From a virus (lineage: Duplodnaviria; Heunggongvirae; Uroviricota; Caudoviricetes), in the IMG/VR virus record IMGVR_UViG_2706794492_000011: a stretch of 8,808 bases of DNA; one strand, given 5' to 3'. Position numbers and translations under genes: made by a program. Positions 2,472 to 6,011 of the stretch are shown here, in pieces. Positions within the stretch are counted from its first letter, which is position 1. Every line of letters starts with the position of its first letter. The notes under the pieces were generated by a model. The model saw nothing but the letters and a program-made list of their open reading frames with translations, was not told where the DNA came from and made no database searches.

Positions 2472-3212
2472 TCAGTTCCTGTGCTGGCTGACGTTCGGAC
2501 GCCAGCTCTCCCAGTTAAACGTCACCCAGCGACCTCCGTTCATGGACATGCGGTCCATCACCCGCTCGCCGAGAAGTGTATTCATCGCTGCATGATTAAG
2601 ATTTGTCAGCATCCCCACACTGAGTAACGATGCCGTTCTGCGGTCAACAATCTGATTAAGCGTGACCTGCTCATTACGCGTATCCCGCTGCATGCCAATT
2701 TCATCCAGGACCAGCAAATCCACCCCGCAAAGCTCCTGTAAAAATTTTTCACCTGATTTGCCGTTGTCGTAACTGTCGTGCAACACACTCATGACATCAG
2801 ACACAGTGATGATAATTACGCTGCGCCCCTTCTCCATCAGCCGATTGCCTATCGCCGCCGCCAGGTGGTTTTTTCCTGTGCCAGGCCGGCCACTGAACAC
2901 AAAATTCGTACAGCCGCCTTCCAGCTCTGCCGCAATGGATTTCGCCTGACTCAGGGCATGGCGCTGACCAGCGTTCTGCACCCGGTAGTTACAGAACGTA
3001 CACTTCCGGTGAAGCGGCTGGATACCGGAGCGGTTAATGATTTTTTCAACCCGCGTCTGATGATTCAGACGATTAACCTCCTCGCTTCGCTTACGCCCTT
3101 CAGCAAGCTGCCATTCCCGCCACTCCGCCACCGTACGGTACGGAGGGATTGCATCCTGCGGCACAAATCTGCTGATTCTTGCCAGAACACCACCTGACGT
3201 AATGTTTTTCAT
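2472..3212 (-). CDS. prophage DnaC-like replicative helicase loader (IstB-like AAA+ ATPase)
   Basis: 246-aa product with Walker A GRPGTGKNHLAAAIG and Walker B LLVLDEIG; collinear similarity along its length to E. coli DnaC as recalled (…NRSGIQPLH…CTFCNYRV…IVDRR…GMLTNLN…LGERVMDRM…). Lies 6 nt downstream of the initiator gene. Confidence 0.9.
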   Translation of the reverse strand: MKNITSGGVLARISRFVPQDAIPPYRTVAEWREWQLAEGRKRSEEVNRLNHQTRVEKIINRSGIQPLHRKCTFCNYRVQNAGQRHALSQAKSIAAELEGGCTNFVFSGRPGTGKNHLAAAIGNRLMEKGRSVIIITVSDVMSVLHDSYDNGKSGEKFLQELCGVDLLVLDEIGMQRDTRNEQVTLNQIVDRRTASLLSVGMLTNLNHAAMNTLLGERVMDRMSMNGGRWVTFNWESWRPNVSQHRN

Positions 3213-3218
3213 GATGCG

Positions 3219-4187
3219 CTACCCCCTGAACCCCGGCGGAATTTCGGTATCCGGTTCAGAAATATGATTCACGCAACGCTGCGCGGGCGAACGCCCCAGG
3301 CGAATAACCAGCTCATCCCATTTTTCCCGGAGTTTTGCCGGACTCATGATGTTTTTTACCCAGAACGAATCCCGTTGAACACGCCCAAACATTTCACAAA
3401 TCTGTCGGTGACTACGTCCATCCAGCATACGCATCATGCGCACATCATTCGCCCAGGTCGTCCAGTTAGGCTCTCTGGGGCGTGATACCTCCCCATCATC
3501 ACTGGCGGCCTGTTCATACAACGCAACAACCCGTCCCCAGATCCACTGTGCACACGTCAAATCCTCCCGGGTTCCCCACTGTCGCTTCGGTACATTCCAG
3601 GTATGCGCATCCGGGTGTTTCTCCAGAAATCGCTCAACTGGTGATGATTGTTTTTCGTCCGGCAGTGAAACGTCCGGACAAGAAGATCTTTTATCTGACG
3701 GATCAGGTTTTAATACTGACGGATCGGGGTCAATCATCGCCCCCCTAATCCGCAGTTTTTTATCAACAGTTGATCCATCAACATTTGACGGGCCAACCGT
3801 TGAGGGGGCAATATTTGACGGGTCATTTTTTGCCTGGCTAATTTTTCTTTTTGGTTTATATGCCTCACGCGCCGCCGCTGCAGCTGCTTCAAGTTTTTCC
3901 ACATTAAGCCGATAGATATTGCTTACGTTACGCCCACCGACCTTACGCTCTTCCTTCGTCAGCCAGCCCTCTTTCGCCAGTTCTGCAATAGCCGATTTCA
4001 CTGTGGATTCACTTCTTGCACCGATCTGACGCCGGATAGTTTCAATGGCAGGCCATGACACGCCCTCGTCATTGCTGTAGTCTGCAAGACGGGCCATAAC
4101 CGCCACCCTGGATAAGATCATGCCGGTGAAGGCGCACCCTTCCCAGACAAGACCATGAAGCTTGCTGCTCATAAAACCCCCGAACAC
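3219..4187 (-). CDS. phage replication initiator (lambda O-like / DnaT-like C-terminus): N-terminal winged helix, DPS-repeat linker, C-terminal domain
   Basis: 322-aa ORF; start is GTG at 4187 or ATG at 4172 (MSSKLHGLVW...). N-terminal HTH-like segment LSRVAVMARLADYSNDEGVSWPAIETIRRQIGARSESTVKSAIAELAKEGWL; linker with repeated DPS/PS motifs; position immediately upstream of the DnaC-like gene. Confidence 0.75.
   Translation of the reverse strand: MFGGFMSSKLHGLVWEGCAFTGMILSRVAVMARLADYSNDEGVSWPAIETIRRQIGARSESTVKSAIAELAKEGWLTKEERKVGGRNVSNIYRLNVEKLEAAAAAAREAYKPKRKISQAKNDPSNIAPSTVGPSNVDGSTVDKKLRIRGAMIDPDPSVLKPDPSDKRSSCPDVSLPDEKQSSPVERFLEKHPDAHTWNVPKRQWGTREDLTCAQWIWGRVVALYEQAASDDGEVSRPREPNWTTWANDVRMMRMLDGRSHRQICEMFGRVQRDSFWVKNIMSPAKLREKWDELVIRLGRSPAQRCVNHISEPDTEIPPGFRG
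3695..3860. repeat. putative replication origin: four 10-bp iteron-like direct repeats plus AT-rich tract, inside the initiator gene
   Basis: CTGACGGATC at 3695-3704 and 3716-3725 (21-bp spacing); TTGACGGGCC at 3785-3794 and TTGACGGGTC at 3815-3824 (30-bp spacing); palindrome TCAACAGTTGA about 3763-3773; AT-rich stretch about 3826-3860 (TTTTTTGCCTGGCTAATTTTTCTTTTTGGTTTATAT). Matches the lambda-type arrangement of ori within the O gene linker. Confidence 0.45.
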
Positions 4188-4194
4188 CGTGCTT

Positions 4195-4620
4195 TTAGTG
4201 CATCACCACAGCATTCCCTGCCGGGCCGCCGCGATTCATCTGGTCATACAAAACAACCGCTGACGCAACAAAATCATCGACATCCTTCACCAGCCGATCC
4301 CTCCGTTCGACGATCTCACGGTAATATTCAGAACTGTGGCTGCGCATACGGGCCACCAGCAAAGGCGGCATCGCCTTTTCGATCGCCGGTAACAGAGCCT
4401 GCATTTTTTCAACAGCATCAGGGGTGTCTTTCTCTACCCAGCGGAAAATTTTCTGGGTATTGCGAGCCAGGGCTTCCGGATGGCTGTCGTCATACAGTTC
4501 TGGGAACGTCATACCCAACTCAAAATAAGCCTGGGTTATTCCAGCTGCTGGAACTTTTTCGCCATCAGGACGCGCCCAGGCATTCATCGCCATGCGGATG
4601 TGTTCATGCTTGATTTTCAT
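4195..4620 (-). CDS. ydaT: YdaT-family protein (Rac-prophage YdaT-like; reported as toxin or CII-like regulator)
   Basis: 141-aa ORF beginning MKIKHEHI..., ATG at 4620 with GGAG about 7 nt upstream; overlaps the upstream YdaS-like gene by 17 nt; position (Cro-like, YdaT, replication genes) as in Rac. Confidence 0.7.
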   Translation of the reverse strand: MKIKHEHIRMAMNAWARPDGEKVPAAGITQAYFELGMTFPELYDDSHPEALARNTQKIFRWVEKDTPDAVEKMQALLPAIEKAMPPLLVARMRSHSSEYYREIVERRDRLVKDVDDFVASAVVLYDQMNRGGPAGNAVVMH

Positions 4621-4879
4621 GAATCAACTCCGGTGTATTTTGTGTGTTAGCCTTATCTCCAGCAGGCAACCCGTCGGTTGGATTCGGATATAAATCTGGT
4701 CGCAATTCATGAGGAGTCACCCCAGTTGCAATATAAATTTGACGAACCCGCTCCCCTGTCGGCACTCGACCATTGTATTCATTTGCCCATTTGTGTATTT
4801 GAGACGGCCAAGCCCCTATTGCACGCCCTAGCGGACGAATACCACCAGCAATCTTTATTGCCTTGTCCAATGCTGTCAT
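4604..4879 (-). CDS. ydaS: Cro-like HTH regulator, YdaS family
   Basis: 91-aa ORF MTALDKAIKIAGGIRPLGRAIGAWPSQIHKWANEY...; GGAGG 4 nt upstream of ATG at 4879; first gene of the leftward operon, divergent from the repressor gene. Confidence 0.7.
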   Translation of the reverse strand: MTALDKAIKIAGGIRPLGRAIGAWPSQIHKWANEYNGRVPTGERVRQIYIATGVTPHELRPDLYPNPTDGLPAGDKANTQNTPELIHENQA

Positions 4880-4906
4880 ACAACCTCCAATTCAATCAGC
4901 CACAAC

Positions 4907-4935
4907 ATTGTTCACTTAAAGAGAACATAAGTCAA
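4907..4935 (-). promoter_or_regulatory. putative early (PR-like) promoter with operator in the spacer: -35 TTGACT (4935..4930), -10 AACAAT (4912..4907), operator TGTTCACTTAAAGAGAACA (4909-4927)
   Basis: Read on the minus strand: TTGACT-17 nt-AACAAT, about 25 nt upstream of the ydaS RBS. The 19-bp imperfect palindrome (half-sites TGTTC...GAACA) occupies the spacer. Near-identical to the module at 5437-5465. Confidence 0.5.
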
Positions 4936-4946
4936 CACTACGAGGA

Positions 4947-4984
4947 ATTGTTAGTGTTCACTGAACGGTTATAATTGCTAAATG
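4947..4984 (+). promoter_or_regulatory. putative repressor-maintenance (PRM-like) promoter: -10 TATAAT at 4970-4975 about 7 nt before the repressor ATG; adjacent palindrome GTTCACTGAAC (4955-4965)
   Basis: Perfect TATAAT hexamer ending 6 nt before ATG 4982 with no Shine-Dalgarno in between, implying a leaderless mRNA. Weak -35 TTGTTA at 4948-4953. Shares the TGTTCAC half-site with the operator. Confidence 0.4.
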
Positions 4985-5371
4985 GACATGAGAAAAAAGC
5001 AATACGACACCCCGCTGGCAGAAAGGTTAGATACGATCTCGCAACAGCATCATTTAAGCGGTTCAGATTTAGCGCGCATCGCTGGTGTAGGACGCTCATC
5101 AGTCAACGCCTGGAAAAAAAGAGGGACAATCAGTAAAGATTCCGCAGCCAAAATTGCAGAAGCGACAAATGTTTCCCTTTCCTGGCTACTGACAGGAAAA
5201 GAAGATACAAACAGAGAGGCGCTTGATGATGATGAGAAAGCCCTGCTTGATGTTTACAGAAACCTGCCACCTGTAGAGCGTAGAAATATGCTGGCAGCTT
5301 TTCAAATGCGCCTTCAAAAACTGACCGAATTTTACTCAGAATACGTTGACCCAATAACGCGACAAAAATAA
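4982..5371 (+). CDS. dicA: XRE-family phage repressor (DicA/RacR-like): N-terminal HTH plus C-terminal helical domain
   Basis: 129-aa ORF with HTH segment LSGSDLARIAGVGRSSVNAWKK; divergent from the Cro-like gene; followed by terminator and the dicF-dicB arm as in Qin. The symbol is by analogy and recalled similarity, not a database hit. Confidence 0.75.
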   Translation: MDMRKKQYDTPLAERLDTISQQHHLSGSDLARIAGVGRSSVNAWKKRGTISKDSAAKIAEATNVSLSWLLTGKEDTNREALDDDEKALLDVYRNLPPVERRNMLAAFQMRLQKLTEFYSEYVDPITRQK

Positions 5372-5392
5372 TTCTTTATTTTACAAAACAAT

Positions 5393-5415
5393 ACCGCCGG
5401 AAGGCGGTTTTTTTT
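5393..5415 (+). terminator. Rho-independent terminator downstream of the repressor gene
   Basis: ACCGCC-GGAA-GGCGGT perfect 6-bp GC-rich stem with tetraloop, followed by a run of 8 T (5408-5415). Confidence 0.8.
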
Positions 5416-5436
5416 GCCTCTTGCGCATTCACAATG

Positions 5437-5465
5437 TTGACATATGTTCATCTTAAGAGAACAAT
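5437..5465 (+). promoter_or_regulatory. putative promoter of the ydfA-dicF-dicB arm (PL-like) with operator in the spacer: -35 TTGACA (5437-5442), operator TGTTCATCTTAAGAGAACA (5445-5463), -10 AACAAT (5460-5465)
   Basis: Consensus TTGACA, 17-nt spacer, AACAAT. Spacer is 13/17 identical to the ydaS promoter spacer; operator is 16/19 identical to 4909-4927. Confidence 0.55.
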
Positions 5466-5540
5466 ATATCCCATCAAAGCACAACGGTGCGACAGGTCTT
5501 AGTTCCGCCCCCCCCGGCGTTAAGGGCAAATGAGGTCAAC

Positions 5541-5693
5541 ATGGATACGCTCAATCTTGGCAACAACGAATCTCTGGTATGTGGCGTGTTTCCCAATCAG
5601 GACGGCACGTTTACCGCGATGACGTATACCAAAAGTAAAACGTTTAAAACCGAAGCTGCCGCGCATCGCTGGTTAGCCAGAAACGCTAACTGA
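5541..5693 (+). CDS. DUF1391-family small protein (YdfA/YdaF-like), 50 aa
   Basis: MDTLNLGNNESLVCGVFPNQDGTFTAMTYTKSKTFKTEAAAHRWLARNAN; GAGG 6 nt upstream of ATG 5541. The track ORF 5487-5693 extends upstream over the promoter and is not favoured. Matches recalled YdfA/YdaF proteins. Confidence 0.6.
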   Translation: MDTLNLGNNESLVCGVFPNQDGTFTAMTYTKSKTFKTEAAAHRWLARNAN

Positions 5694-5953
5694 TTAGCGC
5701 CAGTAAAAACAGGTTTCCACAGGTTAATTTACCCTGAAAAGTCAGGGCATAACACGAAAGCGCACGGCGAGATCCCTTTGCATATAAGTCTTGCCGTTAA
5801 ATTTCTTCGACCGTGCGCTTCTGGTTGTGGCAATCCGCGAAATGGCGCGGCGGTAAGTATGGCGGGGTTATTCCTTCCCCTTGAGGACACCGGGTTGTCA
5901 GGCTGACCATACGCTTAAGTGACAACCCCGCTGCAACGCCCTCTGTTATCAAT

Positions 5954-6011
5954 TTTCTGGTGACGTTTGGCGGTATCAGTTTTACTCCGTGACTGCTCTG
6001 CCGCCCTTTTT
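5954..6011 (+). ncRNA. dicF: DicF small RNA (ftsZ-targeting sRNA of Qin-type prophages)
   Basis: TTTCTGGTGACGTTTGGCGGTATCAGTTTTACTCCGTGACTGCTCTGCCGCCCTTTTT matches E. coli DicF as I recall it; ends in a GC-rich segment plus T5; about 170 nt upstream of a dicB homologue. Exact ends are approximate. Confidence 0.6.

What the first reader, a model, noticed from the sequence alone, without database searches (positions are those of the whole stretch)
4955..4990. Repressor gene appears to be expressed from a leaderless mRNA
Seen: a perfect TATAAT (4970-4975) ends 6 nt before the first ATG (4982) of the repressor ORF, with no Shine-Dalgarno sequence. A transcript from this -10 would begin at or within a few nt of the AUG. 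Lambda cI from PRM is the classic leaderless precedent (established). A palindrome GTTCACTGAAC (4955-4965), sharing the operator half-site, sits just upstream and could give auto-regulation.
Basis: partly seen in the sequence, partly recalled or inferred. Interest (0 to 1): 0.4.

Follow-up and report, generated by a model that had tools for sequence, protein, structure and literature searches.

The report
Leaderless prophage repressor gene
The repressor gene of this E. coli O157:H7 prophage very probably makes an mRNA that begins at its AUG, as phage lambda cI does. That arrangement is already documented for several related prophage repressors, so the finding is sound but ordinary.

Summary
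The window is the immunity region of a Qin/Rac/CP-933P-like lambdoid prophage of E. coli O157:H7.

**What the sequence shows**
- The only TATAAT in the window (4970-4975) sits 16 nt after TTGTTA and 6 nt before ATG 4982.
- The codon just before that ATG is an in-frame TAA, so the ORF cannot start further upstream.
- Neither ATG 4982 nor ATG 4988 has a Shine-Dalgarno. The neighbouring genes have strong ones.

**Comparison with relatives**
- In 25 of 25 homologous repressor loci, a TAnnnT hexamer ends 6-8 nt before the first ATG. These loci fall into 19 distinct upstream-sequence groups from many Enterobacterales and four phages.
- Only 2 of 171 control ORFs show this.
- The ATG follows the -10 even where the N-terminus changes. 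This favours ATG 4982 over the ATG 4988 that PGAP annotates.

**Precedent.** Leaderless repressor mRNAs have been mapped for lambda cI, racR, ymfK, dicA (3-nt leader) and paaR2 of CP-933P. The CP-933P ydaT/replication genes are about 88% identical to this window.

**The palindrome.** It lies at 4956-4966, one base off, inside the promoter spacer. Only its left half-site GTTCAC is conserved.

**A second transcript.** A YdaT (cII-like) operator at 4610-4627 suggests an additional PRE-like transcript with a long leader.

**Verdict.** It is a new member of a known kind, of low interest.

The parts
4948..4953 (+). -35 hexamer TTGTTA of the PRM-like repressor promoter
   Evidence: Promoter scan: 16-nt spacer to TATAAT, 10/12 matches. 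TTG is invariant in 8 close relatives. A TTGnnn at a 16-nt spacer appears in most distant relatives.
4970..4975 (+). -10 hexamer TATAAT
   Evidence: Only exact TATAAT in the window. GGTTATAATTGC is invariant in alignment A2. An equivalent TAnnnT is present 6-8 nt before the ATG in 25/25 homologous loci.
4982..4984 (+). Predicted transcription start (A4982) and first AUG of the repressor; the most likely start codon
   Evidence: It is 7 nt downstream of the last base of the -10. In-frame TAA at 4979-4981. In relatives the first ATG keeps the 6-7 nt distance even where the N-terminus differs: MDMRKK, MNTKKK, MKKK, MKED. No mapping data exist.
4988..4990 (+). Second in-frame ATG. PGAP uses it as the start in many genomes (127-aa form)
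   Evidence: annotation alternates between the 127-aa and 129-aa forms. Lost in Salmonella L028 (MNTKKK).
4982..5371 (+). Repressor CDS, 129 aa: short CI/DicA-type HTH protein without a peptidase domain
   Evidence: Pfam Phage_CI_repr 1.8e-12 and HTH_3. NCBIfam DicA full-length match E 7.5e-10, below cutoff. BLASTP to DicA 26% identity, E 5e-7.
4956..4972 (.). PRM-proximal operator-like site GTTCAC-TGAAC-GGTTAT. It has a conserved left half-site and a weak right half overlapping the -10.
   Evidence: 11-nt direct repeat of the OR1 left half, 46 nt away (D4). GTGTTCACTG is invariant while the TGAAC arm varies. Centre at -18 from A4982, against -19 for lambda OR3. Repressor binding is inferred, not tested.
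4910..4926 (.). OR1-like operator GTTCACTTAAAGAGAAC inside the spacer of the PR-like promoter
   Evidence: Repeat family D1 with the OL copy, and inverted repeat I1. Conserved in A2.
4907..4935 (-). PR-like promoter (TTGACT-17-AACAAT) for the YdaS/Cro-like gene; predicted start near 4900
   Evidence: The predicted PR and PRM starts are 82 bp apart.
4604..4879 (-). YdaS (Cro-like) gene with strong SD GGAGG
   Evidence: Pfam YdaS_toxin 7e-10. Anti-SD duplex -10.5 kcal/mol.
4610..4627 (.). YdaT (cII-like) operator TTGATTTTCATGAATCAA. It marks a probable PRE-like promoter reading towards the repressor gene
   Evidence: Exact match to the published YdaT site TTGATT-N6-AATCAA (PMC9986795). One match found against 0.05 expected. 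Window 4592-4631 is identical to the PRE933P fragment. Promoter activity is inferred from PMC8630535.
4195..4620 (-). YdaT (cII-like) gene
   Evidence: Pfam YdaT_toxin. 95.7% amino-acid identity to CP-933P-type YdaT.
5393..5408 (+). Intrinsic terminator after the repressor gene
   Evidence: GC-rich hairpin followed by T8. Conserved in A3.
5437..5465 (+). PL-like promoter TTGACA-17-AACAAT, with operator OL (5446-5462, GTTCATCTTAAGAGAAC) in its spacer
   Evidence: 31-nt inverted copy of the PR region, 84%. Conserved in A3.

Best explanation
This is the maintenance (PRM-type) promoter of a lambdoid prophage repressor.

Proposed mechanism:
- Sigma-70 RNA polymerase uses TTGTTA (4948-4953), a 16-nt spacer and TATAAT (4970-4975). 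It starts at or within 1-2 nt of A4982.
- The mRNA therefore begins with the AUG of the 129-aa repressor (MDMRKK...).
- Translation starts on the 5'-terminal AUG without a Shine-Dalgarno, as for lambda cI. An unstructured, A-rich start of the coding region helps.
- The repressor binds the 17-bp operators in the spacers of the divergent PR-like promoter (4910-4926) and the PL-like promoter (5446-5462).
- It probably also binds, more weakly, the site at 4956-4972 that overlaps its own -10. That would give negative autoregulation at high concentration.
- A second, long-leader transcript from a YdaT-activated PRE-like promoter near 4610-4645 probably serves establishment, as lambda PRE does.

Shown here: the sequence geometry, the lack of SD, conservation across relatives, and the repeated operators.
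Inferred: the start site, the use of ATG 4982, repressor binding and autoregulation, and PRE activity.
For: 1. Geometry. The promoter matches 10/12 consensus positions, and the -10 ends 6 nt before the ATG. This is the spacing of lambda PRM, TAGATT-taacgt-ATG, and of CP-933P PRM933P, GATAAT-taccac-ATG. The start of PRM933P was mapped to the A of the ATG by 5' RACE, and the protein N-terminus was sequenced (PMC8630535).
2. No other start is possible. TAA is in frame at 4979-4981, and the HTH domain begins near residue 12-15. Only ATG 4982 and ATG 4988 remain.
3. No SD. The anti-SD duplex is -2.9/-3.0 kcal/mol, against -6.8 to -10.8 for neighbouring genes.
4. Conservation.
   - 25/25 homologous loci at 29-100% protein identity have TAnnnT (at least 4/6) ending 6 nt (18 loci), 7 nt (6) or 8 nt (1) before the first ATG.
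   - Only 2/171 control ORFs do (Fisher p = 1e-29). The 25 loci form 19 groups at 70% upstream identity.
   - The gap bases, the operator types and the N-termini all differ. All the start codons are ATG.
5. The coding start suits leaderless translation. Nucleotides +4 to +24 are 57% A (median) against 29% in controls. The first 50 nt fold at only -3.4 kcal/mol, with the AUG unpaired.
6. Context. The divergent YdaS/Cro-like and YdaT/cII-like genes, the operators duplicated at PR and PL, and the terminator all fit a lambdoid switch.
7. Precedent in the same module type: racR and ymfK have a 0-nt leader and dicA a 3-nt leader (PMC4681348 Table S3). PracR3 is the main racR promoter (PMC9638921).
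Against: - No 5'-end mapping or ribosome data exist for this prophage. I found none for a close homologue either.
- The -35 matches only 4/6.
- The number of promoter-like hits in the region is not above shuffles.
- racR has two additional upstream promoters that give leaders. A weak extra start in the 102-bp intergenic region therefore cannot be excluded.
- A PRE-like promoter would add leadered transcripts.
- The start could fall at A4980 or A4981, giving a 1-2 nt leader.
- PGAP annotates ATG 4988 in many genomes.
- In phage mEp237 the homologue is the second gene of a tandem pair, so the arrangement is not universal.
Confidence: 0.85

Rival explanations
1. The repressor is made mainly from leadered transcripts. 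These would start upstream, at the YdaT-activated PRE-like promoter near 4610-4645 or at unrecognised weak promoters like PracR1/2. The TATAAT next to the ATG would contribute little.
For: - The exact YdaT operator lies at 4610-4627, and window 4592-4631 is identical to the PRE933P fragment.
- PRE933P is activated by YdaT (PMC8630535).
- racR has several promoters (PMC9638921).
Against: - PRE933P is silent without YdaT, and in a lysogen ydaT is repressed.
- For racR the leaderless promoter is the strongest and is essential for promoter strength.
- A leadered transcript would still lack any SD before either ATG.
- The 25/25 conservation of the -10-to-ATG distance has no explanation if this promoter is unimportant.
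- As an additional establishment route this is likely. As the main route in lysogens it is unlikely.
Confidence: 0.08
2. Transcription starts near 4982, but translation begins at the second ATG (4988), as PGAP annotates. That gives a 127-aa protein from an mRNA with a 6-nt leader.
For: - PGAP calls the 127-aa form in many genomes.
- Several homologues begin at the position aligned with M3, for example MKKK in Enterobacter.
Against: - In those homologues the two upstream codons are absent, and the ATG again lies 6-7 nt after the -10.
- Salmonella L028 keeps only the first ATG (MNTKKK).
- Leaderless initiation is known to favour a 5'-terminal AUG (Brock et al. 2008, cited in PMC8630535).
- No SD precedes ATG 4988.
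Confidence: 0.06
3. The TATAAT is a chance match or merely part of an operator, and the repressor gene of this possibly defective prophage is not expressed from it.
For: Promoter-like matches in the region are not more frequent than in shuffles.
Against: - The hexamer position is conserved across relatives that use at least four different operator sequences: GTTCAC, TTAGCC/GGCTAA, TAAAC/GTTTA and AAGC/GCTT types. It therefore cannot be operator-specific.
- The homologues include functional phages (SEN34, PHB10, Klebsiella phages).
- The ORF is intact and 98-100% conserved in many genomes.
Confidence: 0.02

Closest known systems
PaaR2 / PRM933P of cryptic prophage CP-933P (Sp12) of E. coli O157:H7 (Jurenas et al. 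2021, PMC8630535)
   Same: - Same module: repressor divergent from ydaS (Cro-like) and ydaT (cII-like), followed by O- and DnaC-like genes.
- The -10 ends 6 nt before the ATG (GATAAT-taccac-ATG).
- The leaderless start was shown by 5' RACE, and the N-terminus by sequencing.
- The coding start is A-rich.
- The YdaT operator and the ydaT gene are nearly identical to the window's (95.7% amino-acid identity; 87.6% DNA identity over 2801-4631).
   Different: - The immunity cassette differs. The window repressor has no BLASTP match to PaaR2, and YdaS is only 23% identical.
- The operators are GTTCAC-type rather than GTTTAGTAA-type.
- No paaA2-parE2 toxin-antitoxin genes follow the repressor. A terminator, a PL-like promoter and a DUF1391 gene follow instead.
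Lambda cI from PRM
   Same: - The -10 ends 6 nt before the ATG (TAGATT-taacgt-ATG).
- The coding start is A-rich.
- The divergent PR and PRM starts are 82 bp apart. The lambda value is from my own knowledge.
- Operator centres lie at about -18 and -64 here, against -19 (OR3) and -66 (OR1) in lambda.
- A second, cII-dependent promoter lies upstream.
   Different: - The window repressor has 129 aa and no LexA-like cleavage domain.
- Its -10 is a perfect consensus, whereas lambda PRM is weak and needs activation.
- No clear OR2 equivalent was found, so positive autoregulation is not evident.
DicA of prophage Qin (E. coli K-12)
   Same: - Closest named protein family: full-length NCBIfam match E 7.5e-10 and 26% identity.
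- Same gene order: dicC-like gene, repressor, DUF1391 (ydfA-like), DicF, dicB.
- The operator sits in the spacer of the dicB/PL promoter.
- The mRNA is classed as leaderless (PMC4681348).
   Different: - dicA has a 3-nt leader, with the -10 TAGCAT ending 9 nt before the ATG.
- The operator sequence differs.
- The window protein scores below the DicA family cutoff (38.7 bits against 101).
RacR (Rac) and YmfK/CohE (e14) of E. coli K-12
   Same: - Prophage repressors with a 0-nt leader (PMC4681348 Table S3).
- RacR is divergent from ydaS-ydaT, and its leaderless PracR3 is the main promoter (PMC9638921).
   Different: - Similarity to RacR is limited to the HTH (E 3e-4).
- racR has two further upstream promoters. 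None is evident here.
Gifsy-type short repressors (GfoR/GfhR/GtgR) controlled by antirepressors (Lemire et al. 2011, PMC3121763)
   Same: - Small repressors of about 130-150 aa without a cleavage domain.
- Homologues of the window protein occur in phages mEp237 and SEN34, next to genes annotated as similar to Salmonella 14028S/D23580 prophage regulators.
   Different: - Homology to GfoR/GtgR was not tested directly.
- No antirepressor gene was looked for.
- That paper reports no start-site data.

Membership tests
Leaderless bacterial mRNA | Primary 5' end at, or within a few nt of, the start codon | not testable with these tools
   Only predicted. The -10 (4970-4975) places +1 at A4982. No mapping data were found for this prophage.
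Leaderless bacterial mRNA | No Shine-Dalgarno upstream of the start codon | tested here: met
   Anti-SD duplex -2.9/-3.0 kcal/mol, against -6.8 to -10.8 for neighbouring genes. The median over 25 homologues is -2.5.
Leaderless bacterial mRNA | AUG (not GUG/UUG) start codon at the 5' end | tested here: met
   ATG in the window and in all 25 homologous loci. In-frame TAA directly upstream.
Leaderless bacterial mRNA | The promoter -10 element keeps a fixed distance of about 6-7 nt from the start codon across relatives | tested here: met
   25/25 loci at 6-8 nt, against 2/171 control ORFs.
Lambdoid PR/PRM immunity switch | Repressor gene divergent from a cro-like gene, with back-to-back promoters in a short intergenic region | tested here: met
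   102-bp intergenic region with a + strand and a - strand promoter. The YdaS-like gene is identified by Pfam.
Lambdoid PR/PRM immunity switch | Repeated operators overlapping PR, PRM and PL | tested here: met
   17-bp sites at 4910-4926 and 5446-5462, and a half-site repeat at 4955-4965. All are conserved in relatives. Binding was not tested.
Lambdoid PR/PRM immunity switch | cII-type activator and PRE-type establishment promoter | tested here: inconclusive
   The YdaT gene and an exact YdaT operator are present at the ydaS/ydaT junction. Promoter activity is inferred only from CP-933P.
DicA family (NCBIfam NF007257) | Score above the curated family cutoff | tested here: not met
   38.7 bits against a cutoff of 101, although the alignment covers the full length. 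It is a distant relative, not a DicA equivalog.
Short non-cleavable (DicA/Gifsy-type) prophage repressors | N-terminal CI-type HTH, about 130-150 aa, no S24 peptidase domain | tested here: met
   129 aa. Pfam reports only HTH families. The best solved relatives match only the HTH.
Short non-cleavable (DicA/Gifsy-type) prophage repressors | Inactivation by an antirepressor | not tested
   No antirepressor gene was searched for. Known for DicA/Rem (PMC10448788) and the Gifsy repressors (PMC3121763).
PaaR2 family | Detectable sequence homology to PaaR2 | tested here: not met
   BLASTP found no hit at E <= 10. Only a short C-terminal motif looks similar by eye.

The most novel reading that the evidence does not exclude
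Starting the mRNA at the AUG may be an obligatory, selected design of the whole family of short (DicA/Gifsy-type) lambdoid repressors, not an accident of a few prophages. Across at least 19 independent promoter/operator variants the -10-to-AUG distance stays at 6-7 nt. The AUG moves with the promoter rather than with the protein's N-terminus, and the right half of the promoter-proximal operator overlaps the -10. If this reading is right, leaderless translation itself is part of how lysogeny is kept stable. It might give low, SD-independent or stress-proof synthesis, coupled tightly to autorepression.
Probability: 0.45. Interest if true: 0.4.

Novelty: new member of a known kind. Interest (0 to 1): 0.2.

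Why it matters
- It corrects the likely start codon to ATG 4982 (129 aa), where many RefSeq records use ATG 4988.
- It adds one more immunity type to the list of prophage repressors made from leaderless mRNA.
- The comparison across relatives indicates that the feature holds family-wide in short non-cleavable repressors of Enterobacterales prophages.
- In O157:H7 this repressor controls a DicF/DicB cell-division-inhibitor operon, so knowing how it is expressed bears on prophage stability.
- It opens no new question. The mechanism is textbook (lambda cI) and was recently shown for the sister prophage CP-933P.

Tried and rejected
**Searches that gave nothing useful**
- Direct start-site evidence for this gene:
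  - The 82 E. coli genomes that carry the cassette are O157:H7 and other STEC strains. EDL933 and Sakai were not seen among the 69 distinct records I could list; 13 of the 82 went unseen.
  - The papers I read had no mapping for this gene. PMC3121763 and PMC7067206 do not mention leaderless starts.
- A megablast of the cassette against the phage collection found only short flanking matches.
- A sequence search of PDB found only HTH-level similarity (phage 186 CI, 434 repressor) and no PaaR2.
- Table S1 of PMC8630535 (promoter sequences) is not held as text. I rebuilt the paaR2 upstream sequence from the primer list and recovered the locus by BLAST.

**Readings rejected or left open**
- The 11-nt palindrome as the functional unit: its right arm is not conserved in Salmonella or Lelliottia relatives that keep the same operators.
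- An OR2-like site at 4931-4947 (GTCAAC-ACTAC-GAGGAA, 4/6 + 4/6): it overlaps the constrained PR -35 and is poorly conserved, so it remains speculation.
- An SD-like GAGAGG in L033 and L002 (-7 kcal/mol): it lies 14-19 nt upstream, inside the promoter spacer, so this promoter would not transcribe it.

Full report
**1. What the window is**

The 1.1-kb region around the finding is 100% identical to a prophage of E. coli O157:H7 FRIK944 and many other O157:H7/STEC chromosomes. RefSeq annotation and Pfam give this gene order:

| Window coordinates | Strand | Feature |
|---|---|---|
| 2472-3212 | - | DnaC-like gene |
| 3219-4187 | - | O-like gene |
| 4195-4620 | - | YdaT (cII-like) |
| 4604-4879 | - | YdaS (Cro-like) |
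| 4982-5371 | + | 129-aa CI-type HTH repressor |
| 5393-5408 | + | intrinsic terminator |
| 5437-5465 | + | promoter-like site |
| 5541-5693 | + | DUF1391 (ydfA-like) gene |

DicF RNA follows at 5955-6006 (Rfam 76.7 bits), then dicB. This is the layout of the Qin (dicC-dicA-ydfA...dicF-dicB) and Rac (ydaT-ydaS-racR-...ydaF) immunity regions of K-12.

**2. Check of the observation**

- TATAAT is at 4970-4975 and is the only exact TATAAT in the window on either strand.
- It ends 6 nt (TGCTAA) before ATG 4982. A second in-frame ATG is at 4988.
- The scan pairs it with TTGTTA (4948-4953) at a 16-nt spacer, 10/12 consensus matches.
- The codon before ATG 4982 is TAA in frame (4979-4981), so the ORF cannot begin upstream.
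- The HTH domain starts near residue 12-15, so only these two ATGs can serve as starts.
- Neither has a Shine-Dalgarno. The best pairing with the 16S 3' end is -2.9 and -3.0 kcal/mol. The values for the other genes are -10.5 (YdaS-like), -7.1 (YdaT-like), -6.8 (DUF1391) and -10.8 (DnaC-like).
It lies inside the -35/-10 spacer rather than upstream of the promoter.

**3. Is it more than chance?**

The number of promoter-like hits in 4500-5800 is not above shuffles: 3 found against 2.0 +/- 1.7 expected. An exact TATAAT 5-8 nt before a given ATG has a prior of about 0.001.

The decisive test was comparative. I collected loci that encode homologues of the repressor at 29-100% identity:
- from a species-level genome collection;
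- from contigs encoding specific homologues;
- from phage genomes.

Results:
- In 25 of 25 loci a TAnnnT hexamer with at least 4/6 matches to TATAAT ends 6 nt (18 loci), 7 nt (6) or 8 nt (1) before the first in-frame ATG.
- Among 171 other ATG-ORFs of 70 aa or more in the same loci, 2 have such a hexamer (Fisher p = 1e-29).
- Anchored on the ATG, the 45-nt upstream sequences of the 25 loci form 19 groups at 70% identity, so this is not one inherited sequence.
- The 6-7 gap bases are not conserved: tgctaa, tgccac, tccgtt, tagtga, tcagat, cgaagc, ggcatt and others.
- The spacer carries at least four different operator types.

The hosts are Escherichia, Salmonella, Lelliottia, Enterobacter, Cronobacter, Raoultella, Serratia, Sodalis, Chimaeribacter, Xenorhabdus and Phlomobacter. 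The phages are SEN34, PHB10, ST974-OXA48phi18.2 and Kp4882-1.

**4. Which ATG?**

The N-termini differ: MDMRKK in E. coli, Salmonella and Lelliottia; MNTKKK in Salmonella L028; MKKK/MKKT in Enterobacter L029 and Salmonella L030; MKED, MSKN and others. In every case the first ATG keeps the 6-7 nt distance from the -10.
- Where the second ATG is lost (L028), the first remains.
- Where the first two codons are absent (L029, L030), the -10 has moved with the ATG.

The start codon is therefore tied to the promoter, not to a fixed position in the protein. This favours ATG 4982 (129 aa). PGAP is inconsistent, calling the 127-aa form in some genomes and the 129-aa form in others.

**5. Features of the coding start**

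- Nucleotides +4 to +24 are A-rich in the repressors: median 57% A, against 29% in control ORFs. Only 3% of controls reach the repressor median.
- The first 50 nt of the predicted mRNA fold weakly: -3.4 kcal/mol, against -5.3 +/- 2.4 for shuffles. The AUG is unpaired.
- Lambda cI (AUGAGCACAAAAAAGAAA) and paaR2 (AUGCAAAAAAAAGAAA) look the same.

**6. Operators and the palindrome**

- The repeat search finds TGTTCACTTAAAGAGAACA (4909-4927) and TGTTCATCTTAAGAGAACA (5445-5463).
- The whole PR-like promoter (4907-4937, - strand) is a 31-nt inverted copy (84%) of the PL-like promoter (5435-5465).
- Each 17-bp site lies in the spacer of a promoter that reads away from the repressor gene, which suits repression by occlusion.
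- A third copy of the left half only (TGTTCACTGAA, 4955-4965) lies 46 nt from the first, in the spacer of the repressor's own promoter.
- In an alignment of six E. coli variants plus Salmonella and Lelliottia relatives that keep the same operators, GTGTTCACTG and GGTTATAATTGC are invariant. The right arm of the palindrome is TGAGA or TGCGA outside E. coli.

The palindrome is therefore incidental. The conserved unit is a half-site followed by a weak right half (GGTTAT) that overlaps the -10.

In other immunity types the equivalent site is a good palindrome abutting the -10, for example TTAGCCAGTGGCTTAcaat.

Relative to A4982 the two window sites are centred at -64 and -18. Lambda OR1 and OR3 are centred at -66 and -19 relative to the cI ATG. 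The predicted PR-like start (near 4900) and A4982 are 82 bp apart, the value I recall for lambda PR/PRM (own knowledge). Binding and negative autoregulation at 4956-4972 are inferred. I found no convincing OR2 equivalent.

**7. Literature**

- Romero et al. [quoted passage not shown] Three encode prophage repressors: dicA (3-nt leader), racR (0 nt) and ymfK (0 nt) (PMC4681348).
- For racR, the leaderless promoter PracR3 is the strongest of three (PMC9638921).
- For paaR2 of CP-933P in O157:H7 EDL933, 5' RACE placed the start on the translation start. N-terminal sequencing (MQKKE) and intact mass confirmed leaderless translation (PMC8630535).
- racR, dicA and cohE are treated as known leaderless genes in a ribosome-profiling study (PMC8794815).

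**8. Relation to CP-933P**

I rebuilt the paaR2 5' region from the published primers and recovered the locus in O157:H7 PV15-279.
- Its promoter reads GATAAT-taccac-ATG, the same 6-nt gap as in the window.
- The window is 87.6% identical in DNA to that prophage over 2801-4631. YdaT is 95.7% identical and the O-like protein 87%.
- YdaS is only 23% identical, and the two repressors share no BLASTP match. Similarity resumes at 5727.
- The window therefore carries a different immunity cassette (about 4632-5726) in a CP-933P-like backbone.

By protein family the repressor is a distant DicA relative: NCBIfam full-length match E 7.5e-10 but below cutoff, and 26% identity by BLASTP.

**9. A second promoter**

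- The exact YdaT recognition site TTGATT-N6-AATCAA (PMC9986795) occurs once in the window, at 4610-4627, on the ydaS-stop/ydaT-start junction. By chance 0.05 matches are expected.
- Window 4592-4631 is identical to the start of the PRE933P fragment, which YdaT activates.
- A -10-like TATTTT (4636-4641) lies where CP-933P has GATAAG.

The repressor gene is therefore probably also reached by a long-leader, YdaT-dependent transcript, as lambda cI is from PRE. This does not contradict the leaderless maintenance transcript. It does mean that a mapped upstream start would not by itself refute the claim.

**10. Conclusion**

The leaderless interpretation is well supported by geometry, by the absence of any alternative start or SD, by strict conservation across relatives and by direct experiments on sister modules. 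It remains unproven for this gene.

It is a new member of a known kind. The only modest addition is that the architecture appears to hold family-wide in short DicA/Gifsy-type repressors. Confidence in the leaderless maintenance transcript is about 0.85, and interest is low (0.2).

Noticed in passing
window 4610-4627 (and 4592-4645): The exact YdaT (cII-like) operator TTGATTTTCATGAATCAA lies at the ydaS-stop/ydaT-start junction. The sequence 4592-4631 is identical to the PRE933P fragment of CP-933P. A -10-like TATTTT sits at 4636-4641. This suggests a YdaT-activated establishment promoter reading into the repressor gene.
   Followed up: partly
window 2801-4631 and 5727-6000 versus L045: Mosaic structure. 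The replication genes and ydaT are about 88% identical in DNA to a CP-933P-like prophage. The ydaS-repressor-DUF1391 cassette (about 4632-5726) is unrelated and replaces ydaS-paaR2-paaA2-parE2.
   Followed up: partly
window 5955-6006 (+): A DicF small RNA (Rfam RF00039, 76.7 bits) lies downstream of the PL-like promoter, followed by dicB. The repressor therefore probably controls a cell-division-inhibitor operon, as DicA does.
   Followed up: no
window 4907-4937 and 5435-5465: The PR-like and PL-like promoter/operator regions are 31-nt inverted copies of each other (84%).
   Followed up: partly
window 4982/4988; L040-L044: RefSeq/PGAP start-codon calls for this repressor are inconsistent between genomes: 127 aa from the second ATG in some, 129 aa from the first in others.
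   Followed up: yes
L035 (phage mEp237) 814-1693; L036 (phage SEN34) 1304-2116: These phages carry two tandem paralogous short repressor genes. In mEp237 the homologue closest to the window protein is the second gene. It still has no obvious SD.
   Followed up: no
window 5219-5330 (repressor residues ~80-116); DicA, PaaR2, mEp237 gp38/gp39: A C-terminal motif (E-x-x-L-L-x-x-F/Y-x-x-L/F-P-x-x-E-Q/R...) seems shared by the window repressor, DicA, PaaR2 and the phage paralogues. PaaR2 otherwise shows no BLAST similarity. The motif might be a common dimerisation or antirepressor-binding module.
   Followed up: no
window 5501-5508: A poly-C tract (C8) in the leader between the PL-like promoter and the DUF1391 gene varies among strains: C7, CTACCCC, CCACCC.
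   Followed up: no
window 4877-4890 (- strand): The ribosome-binding region of the YdaS-like gene (GGAGGTTGTATG) is identical to that of lambda cro.
   Followed up: no
window ~250-440: A run of masked bases (N) interrupts the sequence. ORF translations there show X.
   Followed up: no
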